Below are positions 3,478-42,813 of a stretch of DNA of 56,311 nt, one piece after another. The DNA lies in the IMG/VR virus record IMGVR_UViG_3300013763_000001, positions 1 to 56,311 of that record. One strand, given 5' to 3'. Position numbers and translations under genes: made by a program. The notes beneath the pieces are model-generated. The model saw only the letters and a program-made list of their open reading frames with translations, ran no database searches and was not told where the DNA came from. The stretch comes from a virus (taxonomy: Duplodnaviria > Caudoviricetes). Every line of letters begins with the position of its first letter. Position 1 is the first letter of the stretch.

Positions 3478-3738
3478 ATGGCAGTTGACGATGCCGAAGG
3501 CGACACTACAACAGCCCTGCGGGACGCGCTCATAGCGCTGGTGGAAGCGAGCGCGGCGATGGAAAGCGTCACCTACCAGGATTTCGCTACAAAATACCGC
3601 GTGTACGCCGCCTACCGCGAGGCCGTCACGGTAGCCAGGGAGTTGATCGGGCGGACGGAAGATGCCGATTTGCTGGCGCTGCTGGCCAGCGACGAACGCG
3701 ACCAGGCCGGGTTGCCCGTTGAGGAGGAGCAATCGTGA
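3478..3738 (+). CDS. hypothetical protein
   Basis: Helical ORF MAVDDAEG...; coupled to the next gene (GTGA). Confidence 0.55.
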   Translation: MAVDDAEGDTTTALRDALIALVEASAAMESVTYQDFATKYRVYAAYREAVTVARELIGRTEDADLLALLASDERDQAGLPVEEEQS

Positions 3739-33289: not shown

Positions 33290-33937
33290 TTGGAAGAGAC
33301 AAAGCGCTGTCCCAGTTGCGGGGAGACGAAGCCCCGTACGTTCGAGTTCTTCTATCACAACAGCAGGACTGTCAGCGGTTTTACTGTGTACTGCCGGAAA
33401 TGTACGAACGCGAAGTATGCGCTGATCCGCTATGCCGTGACTGAGCGTAGCAAGGAGAAGGTGCGAGATGGCACCGTCACCGAGAAACGCTGTCCAACCT
33501 GCGGCGAGACGAAGGCGCTAGACGCTTTCTACGGACATCGGGGCAACACCTACGGGAAAACAGCCCTCTGCAAAATATGCCTGGACGCGAAGCAAAAGGC
33601 GCGAGCGATGGCCCGCAAGGAAGCTGGGCTGCCGCACGTTCAGTCCGAGCGTCGGCGCGCCTTCCGCATGCGCGTCCTGTGCCACTACAGCGGCGGCGAG
33701 ACGCCGTTCTGCGCCTGCTGCCACACCACCTACCTGCCCCACCTGACGATGGACCATATCAACGGTGGCGGCGCTGAGGATAGAAAAACCAAGTCGAGTT
33801 CCACACTCTACCAGCGCATCTGCGAAGCAGGGTTCCCTCCTGAGTTCCAAATACTTTGTTGGAGTTGCAATATGGCAAAGTTCCAACTTGGTGCGTGTGG
33901 ATGCCAGGAAGTGAGGGTTACGACTGCCTTGCGCTAG
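33290..33937 (+). CDS. zinc-finger HNH-like endonuclease (antisense insert 4)
   Basis: Two KRCP.CGETK...F...C..C fingers; CACC...LTMDHINGGG...QILCWSCN; TATACT 33252-33257; GGAGG before TTG 33290. Confidence 0.85.
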   Translation: MEETKRCPSCGETKPRTFEFFYHNSRTVSGFTVYCRKCTNAKYALIRYAVTERSKEKVRDGTVTEKRCPTCGETKALDAFYGHRGNTYGKTALCKICLDAKQKARAMARKEAGLPHVQSERRRAFRMRVLCHYSGGETPFCACCHTTYLPHLTMDHINGGGAEDRKTKSSSTLYQRICEAGFPPEFQILCWSCNMAKFQLGACGCQEVRVTTALR

Positions 33938-35004
33938 TAGGCAAGCCCGTAGACGACCCCAAACGCCTTTTGTACCCTTAGCTCAAGGGACATTTCTGAC
34001 GTTATCATCCGCTCGATCTGCGTTTGGACCCTTGCAAGCGGCTCCGTGCCGAGCTTGATGAGCGTCGCGCGCTTCAACAGCTTGGTGTTGAGCAGGACCA
34101 TGACGCCTGCGGGCAGCTTCGGCTCCCAGGCGATGGCGACCTTGCTGAAGCCGGTGTTGTAGTAGCTGGTGTTCGATCCCGCCGTGAGGTCGCCGTTCTG
34201 CGGCGTCATAATCGTCGGGTGCCAGGTGTTGATGACCTCCAACTGACTGGCGTTGACCAGCAGCAGGTCGGGCATGTACGGCGTCAACTGATTGGCCATG
34301 TTCTTGGCCAGGTCGCGCAGCATCTGCTCTACCAGCGCCGTGCCGGTGTAAGGAGCGGCCGCGGCATTGATCAGCTGCCCGCCACCGTAGCCGGTCTGCG
34401 CGCCAAAGCCGGCCAGGACGCCAGCGCCGAGGATCTCCAAGATGCCGTTGAACTGGCTGGTGATGGCCGTACCGCTGGCGGGTGACGGCGAGGCCGGGAC
34501 CGGCGCGTTGGTGTTGTTGGCGCTGTTGCCGTTGACCAGGCACCACTCAATCTCGTTGAGGACTTCTTCCATCTTGAGCGTGGTGTCGAGGTCCAGCGCA
34601 TCCTGGATGTTTCGCTCGAGCTCGCCATCGGCCAGGCGCCAGGAACCGGCGCCGGTGAACAGCGCGGCTTCAGTATCGGTCACGGCGGCGGTCTTGCCGA
34701 AGCGGCCGACGGTATTGCTGATCTGCGTCGGCGCCTGGAAGTCGGCGACCGGCTTGCCGCCTTCGGCATAACCGGCGGTGCTACCGGTCGCAGCAATCAA
34801 GCCTTGCTCGTCCCAGACGTGCGTCTTTGCGCGCATCGGCACTTCGCCGATGGCCGGCACCGGCGCGCCGCCCCGGATGTTCTGCGCCTGGAGCAACGGC
34901 CGGATCGGGCCATCCACGACGCTAATCAGGCCGGAGAGGTCTTGCCGGATATAGTTCGCGGCCTGGACGCTATCCATTGCCTTGCGGACTTCGACCATGG
35001 TCAT
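33934..35004 (-). CDS. major capsid protein (DUF5309/SU10-like)
   Basis: DLS..I..VD...P...H.WDE...EG...N.....K...VTDT...EIE..L..G...GI...E.LA...E..LE; synteny; strongly GC3-biased. Confidence 0.85.
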   Translation of the reverse strand: MTMVEVRKAMDSVQAANYIRQDLSGLISVVDGPIRPLLQAQNIRGGAPVPAIGEVPMRAKTHVWDEQGLIAATGSTAGYAEGGKPVADFQAPTQISNTVGRFGKTAAVTDTEAALFTGAGSWRLADGELERNIQDALDLDTTLKMEEVLNEIEWCLVNGNSANNTNAPVPASPSPASGTAITSQFNGILEILGAGVLAGFGAQTGYGGGQLINAAAAPYTGTALVEQMLRDLAKNMANQLTPYMPDLLLVNASQLEVINTWHPTIMTPQNGDLTAGSNTSYYNTGFSKVAIAWEPKLPAGVMVLLNTKLLKRATLIKLGTEPLARVQTQIERMITSEMSLELRVQKAFGVVYGLAY

Positions 35005-36668: not shown

Positions 36669-37294
36669 CACTCTCCCCTCCAGGGAGCCGCTATCTTGGT
36701 CGTGTGCAAGCCCCAGCGATCGTGGCAATTTGGATGGGGTATATCCCCCACCAAGCTATCGTTGATGTCGTAGGGGTTGCCGCTGGCGATTGACTGGCAC
36801 AGTTTGCAGGCCAAACTACCGCCAAATACGGCCGTGCCGCTCGCCTGGCTCTGTGCGATGAACTCGCGTTGCGCCGCGCCGGCTCCATGCGCCACCTCGG
36901 TCAGCGCCAACTGCGGCACCTTCCAGGCGTCGCGCTCCACCGACCACTGCGCGATTTCTTCCGGCGTTGCGCCGCCGTCTTTGCTGTCGAGAAACTCCAG
37001 CAGGTCATGCTCCCAGGTGGTGCCTACCTGCATCGCCACCCGTTCGGCGTGCTGGCGAATATCGGCCACGACCGCCGGGTTGCTGATCCGCACATAGCCA
37101 GGATCAATGCCGGCGGTCGCCAGTTCGTACATCACGGCCTGCTGGTACGTTTGCAGGCCAGTCTGAAAGAGGATATCGGCCAGGCTGTTGCCACCCGTGG
37201 CGCTTTCCTCAGCGTTGAGCCGCGCTATCGCCTGCCGTACCTGGACGCGGAAACGACCAGACGGGAGCGTGGCGAGCGCGGCGGCGGTGGGCAT
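36668..37294 (-). CDS. MuF-like head morphogenesis protein
   Basis: A.TE...CKLC...N.PY...PHPNC. Confidence 0.7.
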   Translation of the reverse strand: MPTAAALATLPSGRFRVQVRQAIARLNAEESATGGNSLADILFQTGLQTYQQAVMYELATAGIDPGYVRISNPAVVADIRQHAERVAMQVGTTWEHDLLEFLDSKDGGATPEEIAQWSVERDAWKVPQLALTEVAHGAGAAQREFIAQSQASGTAVFGGSLACKLCQSIASGNPYDINDSLVGDIPHPNCHDRWGLHTTKIAAPWRGE

Positions 37295-37305
37295 TTACCG
37301 CACTC

Positions 37306-37491
37306 CTACCGGATTTCCAAAGGTGTGTGAATTTCGGTGATAATCCGCCTGGTTGCCCGGTTGACAGTATTTACGTACTGCTCAACGGCACAGAGGCGGC
37401 AAGGCAGGTTCTTACGTACCGCCGTGTAGACCGTGCCGCACTCGGGGCAGGCGTAGAGGTCTGCCCCAGCGGCGATGCGAATCAGGTCCAT
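37306..37491 (-). CDS. small zinc-ribbon protein
   Basis: CPECG...CRLC. Confidence 0.55.
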   Translation of the reverse strand: MDLIRIAAGADLYACPECGTVYTAVRKNLPCRLCAVEQYVNTVNRATRRIITEIHTPLEIR

Positions 37492-37494
37492 CGC

Positions 37495-38067
37495 TTACCG
37501 CTTCGCAGCCGGCTTGGCCTGCGGCGGCAACGGCTCACTGCTCACCGACTCGCGTACCTGCGAACGGTAGGCGTCGGCACGGTCGCCGGCGGCGTCGGCC
37601 AGGTCGTTCTGGCGGCGCTTCTCGCCCTTGTCGTCAGCGTTGGCGGCGCGTTCCTTCGCGCTCGCTTCCTCCAGGTCGGCTGGCCCGCCTTGCAACGGTC
37701 GCTTCTCCGCCTCGGTCGCAAACTGTCCCGGCGCGTTCAGGTCGGCAGGCGACACGGCGGCCACCGGCGAATCTTCGAAGATGCTGGGCCGGATGCCGGT
37801 CACGCGGTGAATCTGGTGCGCGTTGAGGTTGCCGGGAATGTGCTCCGGCAAGAGGTCCTTTACGTCCAGGACGCGACTCGGCAGGATGCGGATGACCGGT
37901 ACGCTGCAATTGCCGCAACGCTCATCTAGGCCAGCCGTCTGGTACGGCGCGCTGCCGTCACTATGCACGACGTGCTCCGGCTTGATCCCCGCGCCGTCTG
38001 CCGGCGCGTCCTTCAGGAAAAAGGCAATATGGTTGCAGTGCTCACACTGGTAGGCTTTGACGCTCAT
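37495..38067 (-). CDS. hypothetical zinc-binding protein
   Basis: CEHC...CGNC; RBS AAAGGAG at 38081-38075. Confidence 0.65.
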   Translation of the reverse strand: MSVKAYQCEHCNHIAFFLKDAPADGAGIKPEHVVHSDGSAPYQTAGLDERCGNCSVPVIRILPSRVLDVKDLLPEHIPGNLNAHQIHRVTGIRPSIFEDSPVAAVSPADLNAPGQFATEAEKRPLQGGPADLEEASAKERAANADDKGEKRRQNDLADAAGDRADAYRSQVRESVSSEPLPPQAKPAAKR

Positions 38068-38072
38068 GCTAT

Positions 38073-39284
38073 GACTCCTTTAAGATTCGGATGATTCCCC
38101 GCCCCGTTTGTGTTATACTGAGCATATGCACAAATCCTTTCGATATCGCCTGTACCCAACGAAGGCACAGGCTCGCGTGATGCAGCAAACGCTGGACGAG
38201 TGCCGCTGGTTGTACAACCACCTCCTGGAACAGCGCAAGACATCCTGGGAGGAACGGCAGGAGTCGATCTCGCTGTATCAGCAACTTGGCACGATCCCGT
38301 CGCTCAAGCTGGAGCGCCAGTCCCTGGCATCTGTCCACAGCCAGGTCTTGCAGAATGTCGGGGTGCGATTGGACCTCGCCTTCCAGGCATTCTTCCGGCG
38401 CGTCAAGGCGGGTGAGGAGCCGGGCTATCCCCGATTCCGGGGGGCTGGTTGGTACGATGGCTTCACCTACCCGCAGGAAGGACGCAAGGGCGGCACGTGG
38501 CTGGAGACGCTCCCAAACGGGAAGCAGGCCATCCGGCTTGCCAAGATCGGCGCGATCAAGATGGTCTACCATCGCCCCGTGGAAGGGCACATCAAGACCA
38601 CCTGCGTCAAGCGTTGTAGTACCGGCAAGTGGTACGTTACCTTTAGTTGCGAAGTCGAGGACGCGCCCCTGCCGGAACGCACCGAGCAGGTCGGCATCGA
38701 CGTTGGCCTGAAGACGTTCGCCACTCTCAGTGACGGGTCCACGATCGACAGTCCGCGTTTCTTCCGGGCTGAGGAAAAGGCGCTCAAGCGGGTGTCCCGA
38801 CAGCACGCCAAGCTTGCCAAGGGCACTCCTGAACGCCGGAAGCACCGCAAGGCCGTGGCCCGCGTGCATGAGCGGGTCAGCTTCCGTCGCCATAACTTCG
38901 TGCATCAGGAGTCGCGTCGAATCGTGGACGGCCACCAGGTTATCGCGGTAGAGGACCTGGCCGTCAACCGTCTGCTGCACAACCACTGTCTATCGAAGAG
39001 CATCAGCGATGCGGCATGGGGTATGTTCGCGTCGATACTGTCTGGCAAGGCCGCAAGTGCCGGTCGGCAGTACATCGCCGTCAATCCAGCGTACACTAGC
39101 CAGGACTGTAGCCGCTGCCACCATCGGCAAAAGATGCTGCTGTCCGACCGGGTGTACCGCTGCCCGTGCTGTGGTTTGGTCATTGGCCGGGACCACAATG
39201 CGGCCTTGAATATTTTGGGCTTGGGACAACAAGCCCTGGGACTCGTCCCGAGAAGCCCCTGTCTTTAGACAGGGGAGTTGTCAC
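38073..39284 (+). mobile_element. tnpB-only IS200/IS605-derived element
   Basis: Right-end hairpin CCCCTGTC-TTTA-GACAGGGG (39256-39275) then TCAC (39281-39284); no tnpA; no matching left-end hairpin seen; left boundary uncertain. Confidence 0.8.
38126..39268 (+). CDS. tnpB: RNA-guided endonuclease TnpB
   Basis: KSFRYRLYPT HTH; GYPRF; RuvC-I VGIDVG, RuvC-II AVEDL, zinc finger TSQDCSRC...CPCC, RuvC-III RDHNAA.NI; TGTTATACT 6 nt before ATG. Confidence 0.97.
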   Translation: MHKSFRYRLYPTKAQARVMQQTLDECRWLYNHLLEQRKTSWEERQESISLYQQLGTIPSLKLERQSLASVHSQVLQNVGVRLDLAFQAFFRRVKAGEEPGYPRFRGAGWYDGFTYPQEGRKGGTWLETLPNGKQAIRLAKIGAIKMVYHRPVEGHIKTTCVKRCSTGKWYVTFSCEVEDAPLPERTEQVGIDVGLKTFATLSDGSTIDSPRFFRAEEKALKRVSRQHAKLAKGTPERRKHRKAVARVHERVSFRRHNFVHQESRRIVDGHQVIAVEDLAVNRLLHNHCLSKSISDAAWGMFASILSGKAASAGRQYIAVNPAYTSQDCSRCHHRQKMLLSDRVYRCPCCGLVIGRDHNAALNILGLGQQALGLVPRSPCL

Positions 39285-39300
39285 GACTCCTTGCTGTCTG
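39190..39300 (+). ncRNA. predicted TnpB omegaRNA/reRNA 3' part; guide begins GACTCCTTGCTGTCTG at 39285
   Basis: Inferred from established TnpB biology: the scaffold overlaps the tnpB 3' end/right end and the guide is the flank after the end. The 5' boundary is not determinable. Confidence 0.6.
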
Positions 39301-40882
39301 CGTTCGGGCCACGATTGGCACCGATCTCACGCGCCAGATGCGCGCTCTTGTTGCCGAGGTTCTCGGCCAGGCGTGACGCGGTGTCCTTGACAATCTGCCG
39401 GAACCACTCCGGCGTCTCGTCCTCAGCCTTCTTCACCGGCGTGTTGCTGCTCGCTACCGGCGCTGGCACGACTGGCATCCCCGGTGCGGTTGGCGTTGCA
39501 CTACCAGCAACCGGCGGTTGTCGCAATCCTGCAGGCGGCTGTTTCGTGCCGTTGATGTCCTCCGGGTCCTGAATCTCCGCGCTCATCGCACCTTTCGCCG
39601 TCAGCAGGACGCTATCGGGATCACCTGGCTTGCCGACCACCCACAACTGCCGTCCGCCCATGTACAGCGGCTCATCCATGCCATCGACTGGCGGAAGATT
39701 GAGCACCTTCAACGCTTGATTGCCGGACGCGCCGACGTGCGTCATCAGTTCAGCAGCTTGCAGGCGATCCAGGCGTATCTTCGTCGTGTTGGGAGCAAGG
39801 ATGGTGATGTCACTGTTCGCAAGCGCGCCGAGCATCACCACGCGGTTGAAGTCCTCGAAGACGGCTTTCTGCTCCGGCGCGATGACGTTCTCGTCAAACA
39901 TCACCTGGTCTTGCTCTTTACCGTTGCCGCCCAGCGAGCCGCTAAACGCCGTAATCAGCGAGAGCGGCACGCTGAAGACCGCCGACACTTCCTCTCGGTT
40001 CCACGTGCGCAACGCGACGAATTCCATATCCTTGTGCAGGCTGGCGCCGTCGCGTACCATGGCGATCTGGCCGTTGAGAAAGAGCGGCGAGTGTGACTGC
40101 GCGGGGTCCGTGAAGTTCTGGAGCAGGTACTCGCGTTCGCGCTCCAGCTTGATCGGGTCCATGTCGTCTTTGATGGCGTACACGTCGCCGGCCTTGACGC
40201 CGTTGCGAAAGAACCCGGTGTTGTACTTCAGCGCCGCCATGTCGTTGGCGAGCGTCGCGTCCAGCGATTCCAGCGGCGCGAGGCCGCCGCCGTTCGGCCC
40301 GCTGTCGTTGAGCGTGCTGTGCCAGATGTCCGCCGCCGGTATCGGCGTGCTGGTGCTCGTCCAACGCCCGTTCGGAAACAGGTCGTACACCTTCACCGGG
40401 CCGCTTGGCTCTGGCCGTGCAACGATGGTGCGAAAGTCGATGCGATGGAGGGCGGCAAGCGTGCCGTCTGGCGCGCGCTGAATCCGCACGTAGCTGTTGC
40501 CGTTGATCTGGCGGTCACGATAGATCGTCCGCAGCAGCCGGTCGAACGATTGCGTCGGGTTGATCTGCGCCAGCCACGTCCGCACCGCCGTGATGCCGGT
40601 CTCGTCTTCCGACTCACTCTTGATGCCGTACTCGTCAGCGGTCGCCGCCTGTGCGATGTAGTCCACGCAGGTGCGTACCCAGGGGCCTTTGGCGTAGAGG
40701 TGATACTGGTAGGCGGCGTCCTCCAGGTGTTCACGCTGCCAGGCGATCGCATCCTGGCTACGTCCGCCGCCAAGGTCGGAGCCGCCCAGGATCACCAGAC
40801 CGTTGCCGTAGGTTTCGAGCTGCCCGGGGTCGCCAATCCCCTTGGCTACCCGCGACGTTGCGCCACGCGCTGTGCTTGCCAT
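39281..40882 (-). CDS. portal protein (HK97 family)
   Basis: V..CVD.IA...NP...GNSY..I.R...G.APL...YN..FF.NG...DMEF..LR...E....F.VP; follows terL. Confidence 0.92.
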   Translation of the reverse strand: MASTARGATSRVAKGIGDPGQLETYGNGLVILGGSDLGGGRSQDAIAWQREHLEDAAYQYHLYAKGPWVRTCVDYIAQAATADEYGIKSESEDETGITAVRTWLAQINPTQSFDRLLRTIYRDRQINGNSYVRIQRAPDGTLAALHRIDFRTIVARPEPSGPVKVYDLFPNGRWTSTSTPIPAADIWHSTLNDSGPNGGGLAPLESLDATLANDMAALKYNTGFFRNGVKAGDVYAIKDDMDPIKLEREREYLLQNFTDPAQSHSPLFLNGQIAMVRDGASLHKDMEFVALRTWNREEVSAVFSVPLSLITAFSGSLGGNGKEQDQVMFDENVIAPEQKAVFEDFNRVVMLGALANSDITILAPNTTKIRLDRLQAAELMTHVGASGNQALKVLNLPPVDGMDEPLYMGGRQLWVVGKPGDPDSVLLTAKGAMSAEIQDPEDINGTKQPPAGLRQPPVAGSATPTAPGMPVVPAPVASSNTPVKKAEDETPEWFRQIVKDTASRLAENLGNKSAHLAREIGANRGPNADSKES

Positions 40883-42264
40883 CCGCCAGCGCCTCCTGCA
40901 AATCGCGCACCCGCGTCGAGACGGGTTACTTCAAGGTCCGGTCGCGTCCGGTATAACTGCTCAATTGCGCCAGCGACGGCGTCAACGGCGTCATCGTGCG
41001 CGCCGCCTGGGAAGCTTTCCGCCTCGTCCAGGAACGCGCTGATCCAGGATCCGCGCACTAGGAGGACGTTTCCGGCTTCGGCAGCGCTACTCACCGGGTT
41101 AGCGCGTATCTCCTTGCTCCCGGTAGAGCGGTTGCCATAAAACGCATAGCCCGGCAGAACATGGCGGCGATAGTGGTCAATCGTGTTGACGCCACTACTG
41201 CCCGGTTCCTGCTCCATCCAGATCGGGATGGCGTAGGTGTCTAGCGCCGCCGTCTGCGCTACCAGCGCCTCGACTGCCTGCGGTGTGCCGCGCATCCGCC
41301 GTATGTCACGGATGTAGTAGCGGCCGTCGTGCATACTCACGAGCGCGCCGACAGTCCAATCAGGATCAGCACCCTTGCGCGCCTCGGTTGCCGCAAGGTC
41401 CCAGAAGCGCACCGAACGTGCCGCTGCCGGCGCCTGATCCACGATCGGGAACCACTGCCGCTGGAACTTGGTGCCGGGTGGACGCGCGAACCAGTCGCCG
41501 GCCAGGAGTTGCGCAAGCGTATACGGATCAAGTTTGGACAGCGACCGGATGTACTCGTCACGATCCAGATGCGGATTGTCGTCCAGGGTCGAAGGAATGA
41601 ACGCGCGTTCCGGGTCGTGCTCCACCATGAAGCGCTGCATCACCCAGGCGTGCCCCGGCCCTCCGGGGTTGGTTGCCGCCCGCATGCGCGTCGGCACCGG
41701 CAACGTCTTCAATCGACGGAGACGACTGAACAAATAACGGTACTGCGATTCGCTGAACTGCGTGAGTTCGTCGAAACAAATTGTTTGAAACGCTGCACCC
41801 TGGTATCGCAGCTTATCGTCTTCGTGCTCCAGGTAGCCAAAGGTCAAGGTGGCCCGACTGGGGAACGTCCACGTCTTCGTCGTCTCGTTCCAGTGCGCCG
41901 CCGTGCCGCTCAGCCACTCCTTGCTGCGCGCCATGATCGCCTCAGGCAAGGAAAGATCAGCATATGTCCGGCGAAGAATCAACGCGGCGTAGCCGGGTAT
42001 ATCGACATATTGCAGTGCCGCCATGAGCAGCGCCTGACTCTTACCGCCGCCCGCCGCGCCGCCAAACAGCGCCTCGTCTTGATGCAGCGTCAGGAATCGC
42101 GCCTGTTTTGGCGTCGGGTTAGACGGTATCCACGGATTGGCGAAGATCGTCTGTTCCAGCAGCAGTTTCGATTGCTGGAACCGTTCCTCCTGAATCGTCA
42201 GTGAAGAGCCGGCGGTAGGCGTCAAAGTCGAAGACGGCAACGGCGCCAACGATAGGCTCGCCAT
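40846..42264 (-). CDS. terL: terminase large subunit
   Basis: Walker A GGAAGGGKS, Walker B ICFDE, ATNPGG.GH.WV, DNP, WDLA, HDD.VDA. Confidence 0.95.
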   Translation of the reverse strand: MASLSLAPLPSSTLTPTAGSSLTIQEERFQQSKLLLEQTIFANPWIPSNPTPKQARFLTLHQDEALFGGAAGGGKSQALLMAALQYVDIPGYAALILRRTYADLSLPEAIMARSKEWLSGTAAHWNETTKTWTFPSRATLTFGYLEHEDDKLRYQGAAFQTICFDELTQFSESQYRYLFSRLRRLKTLPVPTRMRAATNPGGPGHAWVMQRFMVEHDPERAFIPSTLDDNPHLDRDEYIRSLSKLDPYTLAQLLAGDWFARPPGTKFQRQWFPIVDQAPAAARSVRFWDLAATEARKGADPDWTVGALVSMHDGRYYIRDIRRMRGTPQAVEALVAQTAALDTYAIPIWMEQEPGSSGVNTIDHYRRHVLPGYAFYGNRSTGSKEIRANPVSSAAEAGNVLLVRGSWISAFLDEAESFPGGAHDDAVDAVAGAIEQLYRTRPDLEVTRLDAGARFAGGAGGWQAQRVAQRRG

Positions 42265-42610
42265 CCTTGCCTGTCACCTCCACGCGGTCAGCCCACAGCT
42301 TGTGATACTTGCCGAGGAGTTCCAGCGCCTTGACCTTGCTCCCCAACTCGCGCGCCCTGGCCAGGACGTGCCACTCAACACGGGCAACCTCGGCCAGTTC
42401 ACTCAGCACCTCATACTGGCTCATCGCACGCGCCTGGAGTTCGGCGTCGATCCGCGCGCGGATACTAGCTTTCGCTAAGGTCTGGCTACCCTGCACGTTC
42501 GGCTGCTTGTAACCCGCGCTCCGGGCCGCTCCGGTCGCGTTGCCGTGGGCAGAACCAAGGTACGCCGCAATGAACTGCTCCTGCTTGGAGGTCAGTCGTC
42601 CATCTGGCAT
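42119..42610 (-). CDS. terS: terminase small subunit
   Basis: LTSKQEQF...Y...NATGAARSAGY...KALELLGK...E.TGKDG.PI. Confidence 0.92.
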   Translation of the reverse strand: MPDGRLTSKQEQFIAAYLGSAHGNATGAARSAGYKQPNVQGSQTLAKASIRARIDAELQARAMSQYEVLSELAEVARVEWHVLARARELGSKVKALELLGKYHKLWADRVEVTGKDGEPIVGAVAVFDFDAYRRLFTDDSGGTVPAIETAAGTDDLRQSVDTV

Positions 42611-42813
42611 CACACTGTCCTGCGCTCCGGTCCTACCGGCCGTACCCGCATCACCCGTTCGCATTCCTCATCCGGCGCCACATCCCACCAGCGGTAGGCC
42701 GGCGGCTCGACTGGCATCTGCCGTGCGGCTCGTGCGACCGCCTCCGGCGCAATGGCGGCCAGGGTAGCGAGGGATGCCGTACTCACGATGTCGCAGAGAC
42801 GGTAGAGGGTCAT
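42610..42813 (-). CDS. hypothetical protein
   Basis: GAGGA RBS; TGATG coupling to terS. Confidence 0.5.
   Translation of the reverse strand: MTLYRLCDIVSTASLATLAAIAPEAVARAARQMPVEPPAYRWWDVAPDEECERVMRVRPVGPERRTV

What the first reader, a model, noticed from the sequence alone, without database searches (positions are those of the whole stretch)
38068..39300. TnpB without tnpA or a left-end hairpin, flanked by an 8-bp duplication equal to its guide seed
Seen: all three RuvC acidic residues are present, and a typical right-end hairpin plus TCAC (39256-39284) is followed by GACTCCTTGCTGTC. The same GACTCCTT occurs at 38073-38080, only 30 bp before the tnpB promoter, with no matching hairpin there. 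On the minus strand GACTCCTT is AAGGAGTC, the RBS of the 38067 gene, and the terminal TCA(C) supplies the portal stop codon. Deleting the insert and one copy reconstructs ...GAC AGC AAG GAG TCA TAG C ATG, a clean portal end (DSKES*) with RBS and next start. Established: IS200/IS605 transposition makes no target duplication and needs both end hairpins, and the TnpB guide is the right flank. Inference: the element now spreads as an RNA-guided homing endonuclease between related phages and leaves both neighbours functional. The retained 8-nt seed next to the putative TAM (GCTAT) could allow binding without cutting, i.e. autorepression or control of the downstream head gene.
Basis: partly seen in the sequence, partly recalled or inferred. 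Interest (0 to 1): 0.8.

Follow-up and report, generated by a model that had tools for sequence, protein, structure and literature searches.

The report
Left-end-less TnpB nuclease in phage
An RNA-guided nuclease gene (TnpB) sits between two head genes of a soil phage with its guide-RNA end intact but its left transposon end gone, and an 8-base repeat at its edges looks like the scar of copying by cut-and-repair rather than by transposition.

Summary
tnpB (38126-39268, +) is intact. Its right end and omegaRNA scaffold stop exactly at GTCAC (39284). GACTCCTT occurs at 38073-80 and 39285-92, and nowhere else in the window. No tnpA and no left-end hairpin are present.

Relatives (55-65% identical) do have a conventional left end: a strong hairpin preceded by TTAC or TTAT in 58 of 65. 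The window's copy is therefore left-end-truncated and cannot be moved by a Y1 transposase. The site left of the repeat is CTAT.

The repeat is probably real. An independent phage locus (L139, TnpB 57% identical) has the same anatomy. In both loci, removing the insert plus one repeat copy restores a tightly coupled gene pair.

A repeat that starts at target position 1 cannot arise by deletion within one molecule. It needs an unoccupied allele joined to the interior of an occupied copy at a short microhomology. I read this as error-prone, TnpA-independent homing, kept because it restores the neighbour's ribosome-binding site.

No empty allele was found. Cleavage and the TAM are untested. Autorepression through the 8-nt site has no support.

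The parts
37495..38067 (-). Next head-module gene (190 aa, CxxC...CxxC, no Pfam or PHROG match). Its ATG is at 38065-38067.
38068..38072 (+). GCTAT, the position a TAM would occupy next to the left repeat copy. On the minus strand it holds the TAG that would end the portal gene in the reconstructed empty site. It shares only TAY with the family target TTAC/TTAT.
38073..38080 (+). Left copy of GACTCCTT. On the minus strand it is the Shine-Dalgarno sequence (AAGGAG) 7 nt before the ATG at 38067. Its last 6 bases match a CTCCTT/TTCCTT motif that relatives carry inside the left end.
38081..38125 (+). Remnant of the left end plus the tnpB promoter. An extended -10 (TG 38111-38112, TATACT 38114-38119) lies 6 nt before the ATG. 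Similarity to relatives is above shuffles only from about 38088 onward. There is no hairpin and no TTAY.
38126..39268 (+). tnpB, 380 aa, with the RuvC D192/E276/D356 triad and the zinc finger intact.
39200..39284 (+). 3' part of the omegaRNA scaffold and right end. Hairpins at 39217-39236, 39238-39249 and 39256-39275, then AGTTGTCAC. In the RNAalifold consensus, GTC of the terminal GTCAC pairs with GAC at 39191-39193. Conservation in relatives stops exactly after CAC.
39285..39300 (+). Guide/target, the first bases outside the right end. Its first 8 nt are the right copy of GACTCCTT. The 16-nt length is inferred from ISDra2, not measured. It encodes the last portal codons on the minus strand.
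39281..40882 (-). Portal gene (533 aa, PF04860). Its TGA stop at 39281-39283 is supplied by the element's terminal bases.

Best explanation
This is a tnpA-less (IS1341-type) member of the IS200/IS605 TnpB family. It has lost its left end but keeps everything needed to make an active TnpB-omegaRNA complex: its own promoter, an intact nuclease and an intact RNA scaffold and right end.

The guide is the first 16 or so bases outside the right end. These are the last portal codons, which also carry the ribosome-binding site of the next gene. Without the left hairpin and target, a Y1 transposase can neither excise nor move the element.

Proposed origin of the 8-bp repeat (inferred). It formed when the TAM-proximal stub of a broken, unoccupied allele was joined to the interior of an occupied copy at a 5-6-nt microhomology (CTCCTT). 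The right side was copied faithfully through the right end. This is an error-prone version of TnpB-triggered homing or recombinational repair. The product survived because it puts an AAGGAG back in front of the next gene, which a canonical insertion would have separated from its RBS.

Today the element can persist, spread to unoccupied alleles of related phages or damage such competitors only through RNA-guided cleavage plus recombination.

Shown: the anatomy, the truncation, the right-end boundary, family left-end and target features, the second locus, and the clean reconstructions. Inferred: nuclease activity, the TAM, the break-and-join origin, and present-day homing.
For: Nuclease domains and catalytic residues are intact. 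The right-end boundary is defined by comparison: conservation ends at ...GTCAC, and the last three columns are invariant in 72 of 72 sequences. Of 19 predicted omegaRNA pairs, 17 show compensatory changes.

Relatives have a left-end hairpin (-15.4 and -16.2 kcal/mol, z -3.2 and -4.4). It is preceded by TTAC (40) or TTAT (18) in 58 of 65. Three copies in one genome diverge exactly left of TTAC. The window has only 58 nt between the neighbour's ATG and tnpB's ATG, and that stretch forms no hairpin. No Y1 tnpA is present.

The right repeat copy starts at target position 1. The left copy is preceded by TAT, and the family motif is TAY.

An independent parallel is L139, in a 163.6-kb viral record with TnpB 57% identical. 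It has an 8-nt repeat of the first flank bases (GTCTCCCC) and only 45 nt between the neighbour's ATG and tnpB. The left copy is preceded by TAC. Its reconstruction gives an upstream gene ending ...WGDV, with the TGA stop overlapping the ATG of the next gene and GGAG upstream.

Prefix repeats of 8 nt or more occur in 3 of 153 elements against 2 of 765 offset controls.

Left-end interiors of relatives carry CTCCTT (7) or TTCCTT (12) within 24 nt after the hairpin in 63 elements. Control windows gave 2 and 0 of 91. This supplies the microhomology.

Both junctions are bridged by contigs of a second strain in other runs. That strain has 12-14 SNPs at 37600-37972 and none from 37973 to 39839.
Against: No unoccupied allele was found. 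The contigs of 4 runs, all from one study, show no joint that skips the insert, and contigs drop rare variants. Neither flank has an exact match in IMG/VR. The only portal relative with DNA in hand is 53% identical and has a different neighbour gene.

Position -4 of the putative TAM is C in the window and A in L139, against T in 58 of 65 relatives. Cleavage of such sites is untested.

The enrichment test is weak once the window is left out: 2 of 152 against about 0.4 expected. One of those two, L168, has no TAY and no informative reconstruction.

AAGGAG is a common RBS here, with 18 copies on the coding strand and 9 extended by T, so part of the identity could be functional convergence.

Homology of 38073-38087 to relatives is ambiguous: it could be a post-hairpin motif or a hairpin-loop remnant. 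It does not exceed shuffles.

All three repeats are exactly 8 nt. A microhomology model does not predict this. I attribute it to where the RBS lies, but that is an assumption.
Confidence: 0.45

Rival explanations
1. Ordinary decay. A Y1 transposase, supplied in trans by the host, inserted a full element at a TTAY or TAY site. A later deletion removed the left end. The left GACTCCTT is a new or element-derived ribosome-binding site that matches the right flank only by functional convergence. tnpB is a stranded passenger with no current role.
For: Relatives have canonical ends and targets. CTCCTT/TTCCTT is common just inside their left ends. AAGGAG(T) is a frequent RBS in this phage. Control 8-mers recur by chance at about 0.3-0.8%, and the window was selected for the repeat. 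A TTAC target before the flank would also give an in-frame portal stop (TAA), by my reading.
Against: This needs several independent coincidences in two unrelated loci: two or three extra matching bases beyond the motif; TAY directly left of the left copy (TAT in the window, TAC in L139); and reconstructions that give an immediate in-frame stop coupled to the next start. A deletion within one molecule cannot place the target's first bases to the left of the element. The promoter, ORF and scaffold are all intact.
Confidence: 0.3
2. The 8-bp repeat is a true target-site duplication. An unrecognised insertion mechanism, for example an 8-bp staggered cut followed by fill-in, acted on a left-end-less TnpB unit.
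For: All three prefix repeats found are exactly 8 nt. In each, the unit between the repeats is just promoter, tnpB and right end.
Against: No transposase or integrase is encoded in or beside the unit. The family is known to make no duplication (PMC13565253, passage). The left boundary differs relative to the promoter in the three loci. L168 may be a chance hit.
Confidence: 0.07
3. Domesticated regulator. TnpB-omegaRNA binds the 8-nt self site at 38073-38080 without cutting, and so represses its own promoter or controls the next head gene.
For: The site lies 30-50 nt upstream of the tnpB -10 and over the neighbour's RBS. Nuclease-dead TnpB relatives (TldR) are phage-encoded repressors (abstracts seen in the listings).
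Against: The catalytic triad and full length are kept, unlike TldR. Only 8 of about 16 guide bases match. The adjacent motif is not the family TTAY. The guide has no other match in the window.
Confidence: 0.05
4. Assembly artefact or chimera joining a bacterial TnpB element to a phage contig.
For: None beyond the fact that this is a metagenome-derived record.
Against: Contigs from 4 runs cover the stretch. Separate contigs bridge the left junction in three runs: X1 record 1, X3 record 10 and X4 record 16. Contigs bridge the right junction in X1 record 1 and X4 record 17. Two of these runs (X3, X4) carry a strain with SNPs in the flank. All runs belong to one study, and two may be the source sample.
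Confidence: 0.02

Closest known systems
IS200/IS605-family TnpB elements of the IS1341 (tnpB-only) group; ISDra2 TnpB is the structural reference (PDB 8bf8/8exa/8h1j)
   Same: Same domain set, catalytic triad and zinc finger. The omegaRNA is encoded over the gene's 3' end and the right end. There is a subterminal right-end hairpin with a fixed terminal tetranucleotide (TCAC). The guide is the adjacent flank.
   Different: There is no left-end hairpin and no TTAY target at the left. An 8-bp direct repeat of the flank is present. The element is therefore not an intact insertion sequence.
Transposon homing by TnpB: restorative homing, and 'non-restorative' homing into homologous plasmids or co-infecting phages (review PMC13565253, passages read; Meers et al. 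preprint PMC10055086, abstract only)
   Same: The proposed mechanism is the same. The guide RNA directs cleavage of the unoccupied site, and recombination with an occupied copy installs the element without TnpA.
   Different: Here the evidence is a natural genomic scar, not an experiment. The product is imprecise (left end lost, target prefix duplicated) and is then fixed for TnpA-independent life. I found no description of such scars in my two full-text searches. Supplements were not available.
Free-standing homing endonuclease genes of T-even phages (Seg, Mob; intronless homing, as summarised in PMC13565253)
   Same: A nuclease gene wedged between conserved phage genes, leaving both functional. 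It is expected to spread by double-strand-break repair in co-infection and to exclude competitors.
   Different: Target recognition would be by RNA guide plus TAM rather than by protein. Self and non-self are told apart by the insert itself (TCAC against TAY next to the target).
TldR, nuclease-dead TnpB-derived RNA-guided repressors in prophages (abstracts seen)
   Same: A phage-borne TnpB homologue with a fixed guide and no transposase.
   Different: TldR has lost its catalytic residues. This protein keeps D, E and D and its full length.

Membership tests
TnpB RNA-guided nuclease (OrfB_IS605) | N-terminal HTH/WED-REC, a RuvC domain with the D-E-D triad, and a zinc-finger TNB domain | tested here: met
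   Pfam PF12323, PF01385 and PF07282. D192, E276, D356 and four Cys are invariant among 20 relatives. Full-length alignment to ISDra2 TnpB structures.
TnpB RNA-guided nuclease (OrfB_IS605) | A conserved structured omegaRNA scaffold overlapping the gene's 3' end and ending at the transposon boundary | tested here: met
   Alignment of 72 sequences; 17 of 19 predicted pairs show compensatory changes; conservation stops at GTCAC. No Rfam family matched.
TnpB RNA-guided nuclease (OrfB_IS605) | RNA-guided, TAM-dependent DNA cleavage | not testable with these tools
   Needs a TAM library and a cleavage assay.
Intact IS200/IS605 insertion sequence | A subterminal right-end hairpin and a conserved cleavage tetranucleotide | tested here: met
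   Hairpin at 39256-39275 (-11.3 kcal/mol, z -3.1). A strict ...GTCAC-type terminal motif was found in 95 of 129 relatives, and most of the rest show close variants.
Intact IS200/IS605 insertion sequence | A subterminal left-end hairpin, preceded by the target tetranucleotide | tested here: not met
   Relatives have the hairpin plus TTAC/TTAT in 58 of 65. The window has no hairpin, only 58 nt of room, and CTAT at the junction.
Intact IS200/IS605 insertion sequence | No target-site duplication | tested here: not met
   An 8-bp direct repeat of the flank lies at both edges.
Intact IS200/IS605 insertion sequence | A Y1 (HUH) TnpA in the element or supplied in trans | tested here: not met
   PF01797 was not found in the 56-kb record, while the control genomes gave hits. 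The host genome is unknown.
Homing endonuclease gene (works-like comparison) | Presence/absence polymorphism at the same site among related genomes, with the nuclease cutting the empty allele | tested here: inconclusive
   No empty allele in the contigs of 4 runs, in IMG/VR or in genomes. Close relatives of this phage are not in the collections.
TldR (nuclease-dead TnpB repressor) | Loss of RuvC catalytic residues or C-terminal truncation | tested here: not met
   The triad and full length are retained.

The most novel reading that the evidence does not exclude
Left-end-less TnpB units flanked by a repeat of the first bases of their own guide target are natural scars of TnpA-independent, RNA-guided homing between phage genomes. 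They would form a recurrent class (this window and L139 at least) of free-standing RNA-guided homing endonuclease genes. In this class, an imprecise repair event both freed the nuclease from its transposon and repaired the host operon.
Probability: 0.35. Interest if true: 0.8.

Novelty: new variant of a known kind. Interest (0 to 1): 0.6.

Why it matters
TnpB is the ancestor of Cas12. Its proposed natural role is homing that keeps or spreads its transposon, and this rests mostly on laboratory systems. A natural junction that only an encounter between an occupied and an unoccupied allele can produce would be field evidence for that role. It would also show how a guide-RNA nuclease can leave its transposon and live as a stand-alone selfish gene in phages. 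That is a plausible first step toward domestication, such as competitor exclusion or the CRISPR-like and TldR-like routes. The signature is simple and searchable: right end intact, left end gone, flank prefix repeated next to a TAM-like motif.

Tried and rejected
Empty-allele hunt.
- Single-protein and alignment scans of IMG/VR with the portal gave no relatives.
- Exact 30-mers of both flanks had no match in IMG/VR.
- The phage collection holds portals only at 25% identity or less.
- The genome collection gave one Chloroflexota MAG locus at 53% identity with a different neighbour gene.
- Contigs of 4 runs showed no joint across the insert. A hole or missing joint in contigs proves nothing.
- An exact flank 29-mer of L139 matched only its own contig.

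Closest TnpB relatives. Proteins 77-81% identical (P0005-P0008) could not be fetched as DNA.

Methods that gave nothing usable.
- An nhmmer profile of relatives' upstream regions found no hit in the window.
- A perfect-stem hairpin finder was too strict, detecting 14 of 91.
- A sliding-window energy classifier for left ends was confounded by GC-rich flanking genes and was dropped.
- Rfam had no match.
- The consensus promoter scan proposed TTGACG-N18-TAAGAT across the junction. I set it aside because relatives conserve the TG-TATAAT box next to the ATG instead.

Rejected ideas. A cis deletion or replication slippage within one occupied copy cannot be the source of the repeat: by geometry it cannot put target bases left of the element. 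TldR-type domestication is ruled out because the catalytic residues are intact.

Full report
**What the window is**

The window is a 56,311-bp IMG/VR virus record holding a single tnpB copy. Around the finding, the minus strand carries a head and packaging module:
- small terminase, 42119-42664;
- large terminase, 40846-42264;
- portal, 39281-40882 (PF04860);
- a 190-aa protein with no family match, 37495-38067;
- further on, a major head protein, 33934-35004.

tnpB lies on the opposite strand between the portal gene and the 190-aa gene. TnpB relatives are abundant in Chloroflexota and Ktedonobacteria-like genomes. The only portal relative with DNA in hand comes from a Chloroflexota MAG. The host is therefore probably of that phylum; this is an inference.

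**The observation**

- The TnpB ORF (38126-39268) has all three Pfam domains.
- The D192/E276/D356 triad and the four zinc-finger cysteines are invariant among 20 relatives.
- The protein aligns over its full length with ISDra2 TnpB structures.
- GACTCCTT occurs exactly twice in the window, at 38073 and 39285.
- No Y1 transposase is encoded anywhere in the record.

**The right end**

I collected 80 metagenomic loci, about 50 genomic loci and about 150 viral loci that encode TnpB 40-65% identical. In these, sequence conservation runs through three hairpins and stops abruptly after ...AGTnGTCAC, and the flanks beyond are unrelated. In a 72-sequence alignment the final CAC is invariant, and 17 of 19 predicted base pairs show compensatory changes. 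The consensus structure also pairs the terminal GTC with a GAC inside the codons around the third catalytic residue. The right end at 39284, and the guide beginning at 39285, are thus established by comparison. No Rfam family matches.

**The left end**

Relatives have a conventional left end. It consists of TTAC or TTAT, about 12 nt, a long imperfect hairpin (outer stem, AGAAAG-type internal loop, CCCC...GGGG inner stem), and then a promoter whose TG-extended -10 sits 6-7 nt before the start codon. TTAC (40) or TTAT (18) was found in 58 of the 65 relatives where my pattern detected the hairpin. One of the 7 misses is an anchoring error. True exceptions include CTAC, TTAA and TCAC. Three copies in one genome lose similarity exactly to the left of TTAC, which fixes the boundary. 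Two example left ends fold at -15.4 and -16.2 kcal/mol (z -3.2 and -4.4).

In the window, only 58 nt separate the neighbour's ATG from tnpB's ATG. That stretch folds no better than shuffles. Similarity to relatives exceeds shuffles only for the promoter-proximal part, from about 38088 (top local score 27; 100 shuffles gave mean 20.4, maximum 26). The element is therefore left-end-truncated. I think it instead identifies the window's copy as a derivative.

**Is the repeat chance?**

Arguments for chance:
- AAGGAG is a common RBS in this phage (18 copies on the coding strand, 9 followed by T).
- Relatives often carry CTCCTT (7) or TTCCTT (12) within 24 nt after the hairpin, among 63 elements, against 2 and 0 in 91 control windows.
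- Control 8-mers from the flank recur upstream at 0.3-0.8%.
- The window was chosen for this feature.

Arguments against chance:
- The right copy starts at target position 1.
- The left copy is directly preceded by TAT, and the family motif is TAY.
- Removing the insert plus one copy yields portal ...DSKES, a TAG stop, one base, then the neighbour's ATG with GGAG upstream.

The strongest argument is an independent locus. L139 comes from a complete 163.6-kb viral record, with TnpB 57% identical and different flanking genes. It shows the same anatomy:
- an 8-nt repeat of the first flank bases;
- only 45 nt between the neighbour's ATG and tnpB, so no room for a left end;
- TAC directly left of the left copy;
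- a reconstruction in which the upstream gene ends ...WGDV, with its TGA overlapping the ATG of the next gene and GGAG upstream.

A third case, L168, has the 8-nt repeat but no TAY and no informative reconstruction. It may be the chance hit one expects among 167 elements. Overall, 3 of 153 elements have a prefix repeat of 8 nt or more 25-110 nt upstream, against 2 of 765 offset controls. Another 14 elements added none.

**Mechanism**

A deletion or slippage within one occupied molecule cannot place the first bases of the target to the left of the element. That requires a molecule with the unoccupied site as the left partner and an occupied molecule as the right partner.

The simplest route is as follows. 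TnpB-omegaRNA cuts an unoccupied allele. From recalled work on ISDra2, not from a call, the cut is 15-21 nt from the TAM. The portal-side end invades an occupied copy and is extended through the right end, tnpB and the promoter. The join to the other end is then made not in homologous flank but at a short microhomology, between the TAM-proximal stub (GA-CTCCTT) and a CTCCTT-like stretch in or just after the left-end hairpin.

A canonical insertion at this point would separate the neighbour's ATG from its RBS, which lies inside the target. The truncated product puts AAGGAG back 7 nt before the ATG, and in L139 it puts GGGGAG back. It also becomes immune to excision. Selection would therefore retain exactly such products.

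Which step made the break is inferred. That the nuclease is active is also inferred. Position -4 of the putative TAM (C here, A in L139) departs from the family's T, so cleavage of these sites must be tested. The base that differs between the occupied junction (TCAC) and both putative sites (TAT, TAC) is -3, which would fit self/non-self discrimination; this too is an inference.

**Population data**

Four soil runs from one study hold the phage, and two of them may be the source sample. A second strain, seen in runs X3 and X4, carries both junctions unchanged. It differs at 12-14 positions within 37600-37972 and at none from 37973 to 39839. An identical block centred on the element would fit recent co-conversion. 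However, the portal side is poorly diverged anyway, so this is only a weak hint. No contig skips the insert.

**What is known**

TnpB homing and its TnpA-independent 'non-restorative' form, including between co-infecting phages or plasmids, are described in a 2026 review (PMC13565253; passages read). For the primary papers I saw only abstracts in listings. tnpB genes are common in phage genomes: 438 of 50,697 phage records match this protein. They have been noted in cyanophages and Thermus phages (passages).

I did not find a description of left-end-less units with a repeated target prefix in two full-text searches. Supplements were closed and could hold such cases. The finding is therefore a new variant of a known kind. 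The nuclease is a family member, but the unit fails two defining features of an intact IS200/IS605 element: the left end, and the absence of a duplication.

**Verdict**

- Observation: confirmed.
- Interpretation: partly supported. The TAM claim and the autorepression idea lack support. The homing idea is plausible, already in print as a concept, and strengthened here by a second locus and by a junction geometry that needs an unoccupied partner.
- Confidence: about 0.45 for the specific break-and-join origin, about 0.9 for the truncated, TnpA-immobile anatomy, and about 0.75-0.8 that the reconstruction is the true pre-insertion site.

Noticed in passing
L139:2456-3653 (IMG/VR record behind handle G402): An independent phage locus with the same anatomy as the window. 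The TnpB unit has no left end, the first 8 flank bases are repeated 43 nt before the ATG, TAC lies left of the left copy, and the flanking gene is extended by 6 codons read from the right end.
   Followed up: yes
L139:1943-2006: A solo, inverted copy of the last 64 nt of that element's right end (97% identical) lies about 450 nt from the unit. It supplies the TGA stop of the + strand ORF 1395-1946. It may be the remnant of a second, oppositely oriented insertion.
   Followed up: partly
L168:2438-2445 and 3630-3637: A third 8-nt flank-prefix repeat (CTCTGAGC) lies just upstream of the -35 of a tnpB that lacks a left end. It has no TAY motif beside it and may be chance.
   Followed up: partly
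window 38111-38128, and relatives: The conserved TG-extended -10 box ends only 6-7 nt before the tnpB start codon, in the window and in most relatives. tnpB mRNAs of this clade are therefore probably leaderless.
   Followed up: no
window 37253-37972 versus 37973-39839: A second strain in runs X3 and X4 differs at 12-14 positions clustered in the 190-aa gene. It is identical across that gene's first 95 nt, the whole TnpB unit and 550 nt of the portal gene.
   Followed up: partly
window 39209-39241: In run X2 a 33-nt contig at depth 60 (neighbouring contigs at 38-42) breaks the assembly inside the omegaRNA region. Other TnpB copies in the sample probably share this 33-mer.
   Followed up: no
alignment A3, columns 76-78 and 202-204 (window 39191-39193 and 39280-39282): In the RNAalifold consensus, GAC in the codons around the third catalytic Asp pairs with GTC of the terminal GTCAC (G-C in 72 of 72, A-U in 71 of 72). 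The pair barely varies, so covariation neither supports nor refutes it.
   Followed up: no
L082:3761-6066: The only genomic portal relative (53% identical, Chloroflexota MAG) is followed by a different gene whose start overlaps the portal stop. Tight portal/next-gene coupling thus looks typical, but the neighbour gene is not conserved.
   Followed up: partly
window 37495-38067 (-): The 190-aa neighbour has two CxxC pairs near its N-terminus and an acidic, low-complexity tail. It has no Pfam or PHROG match, and its function in the head module is unknown.
   Followed up: no
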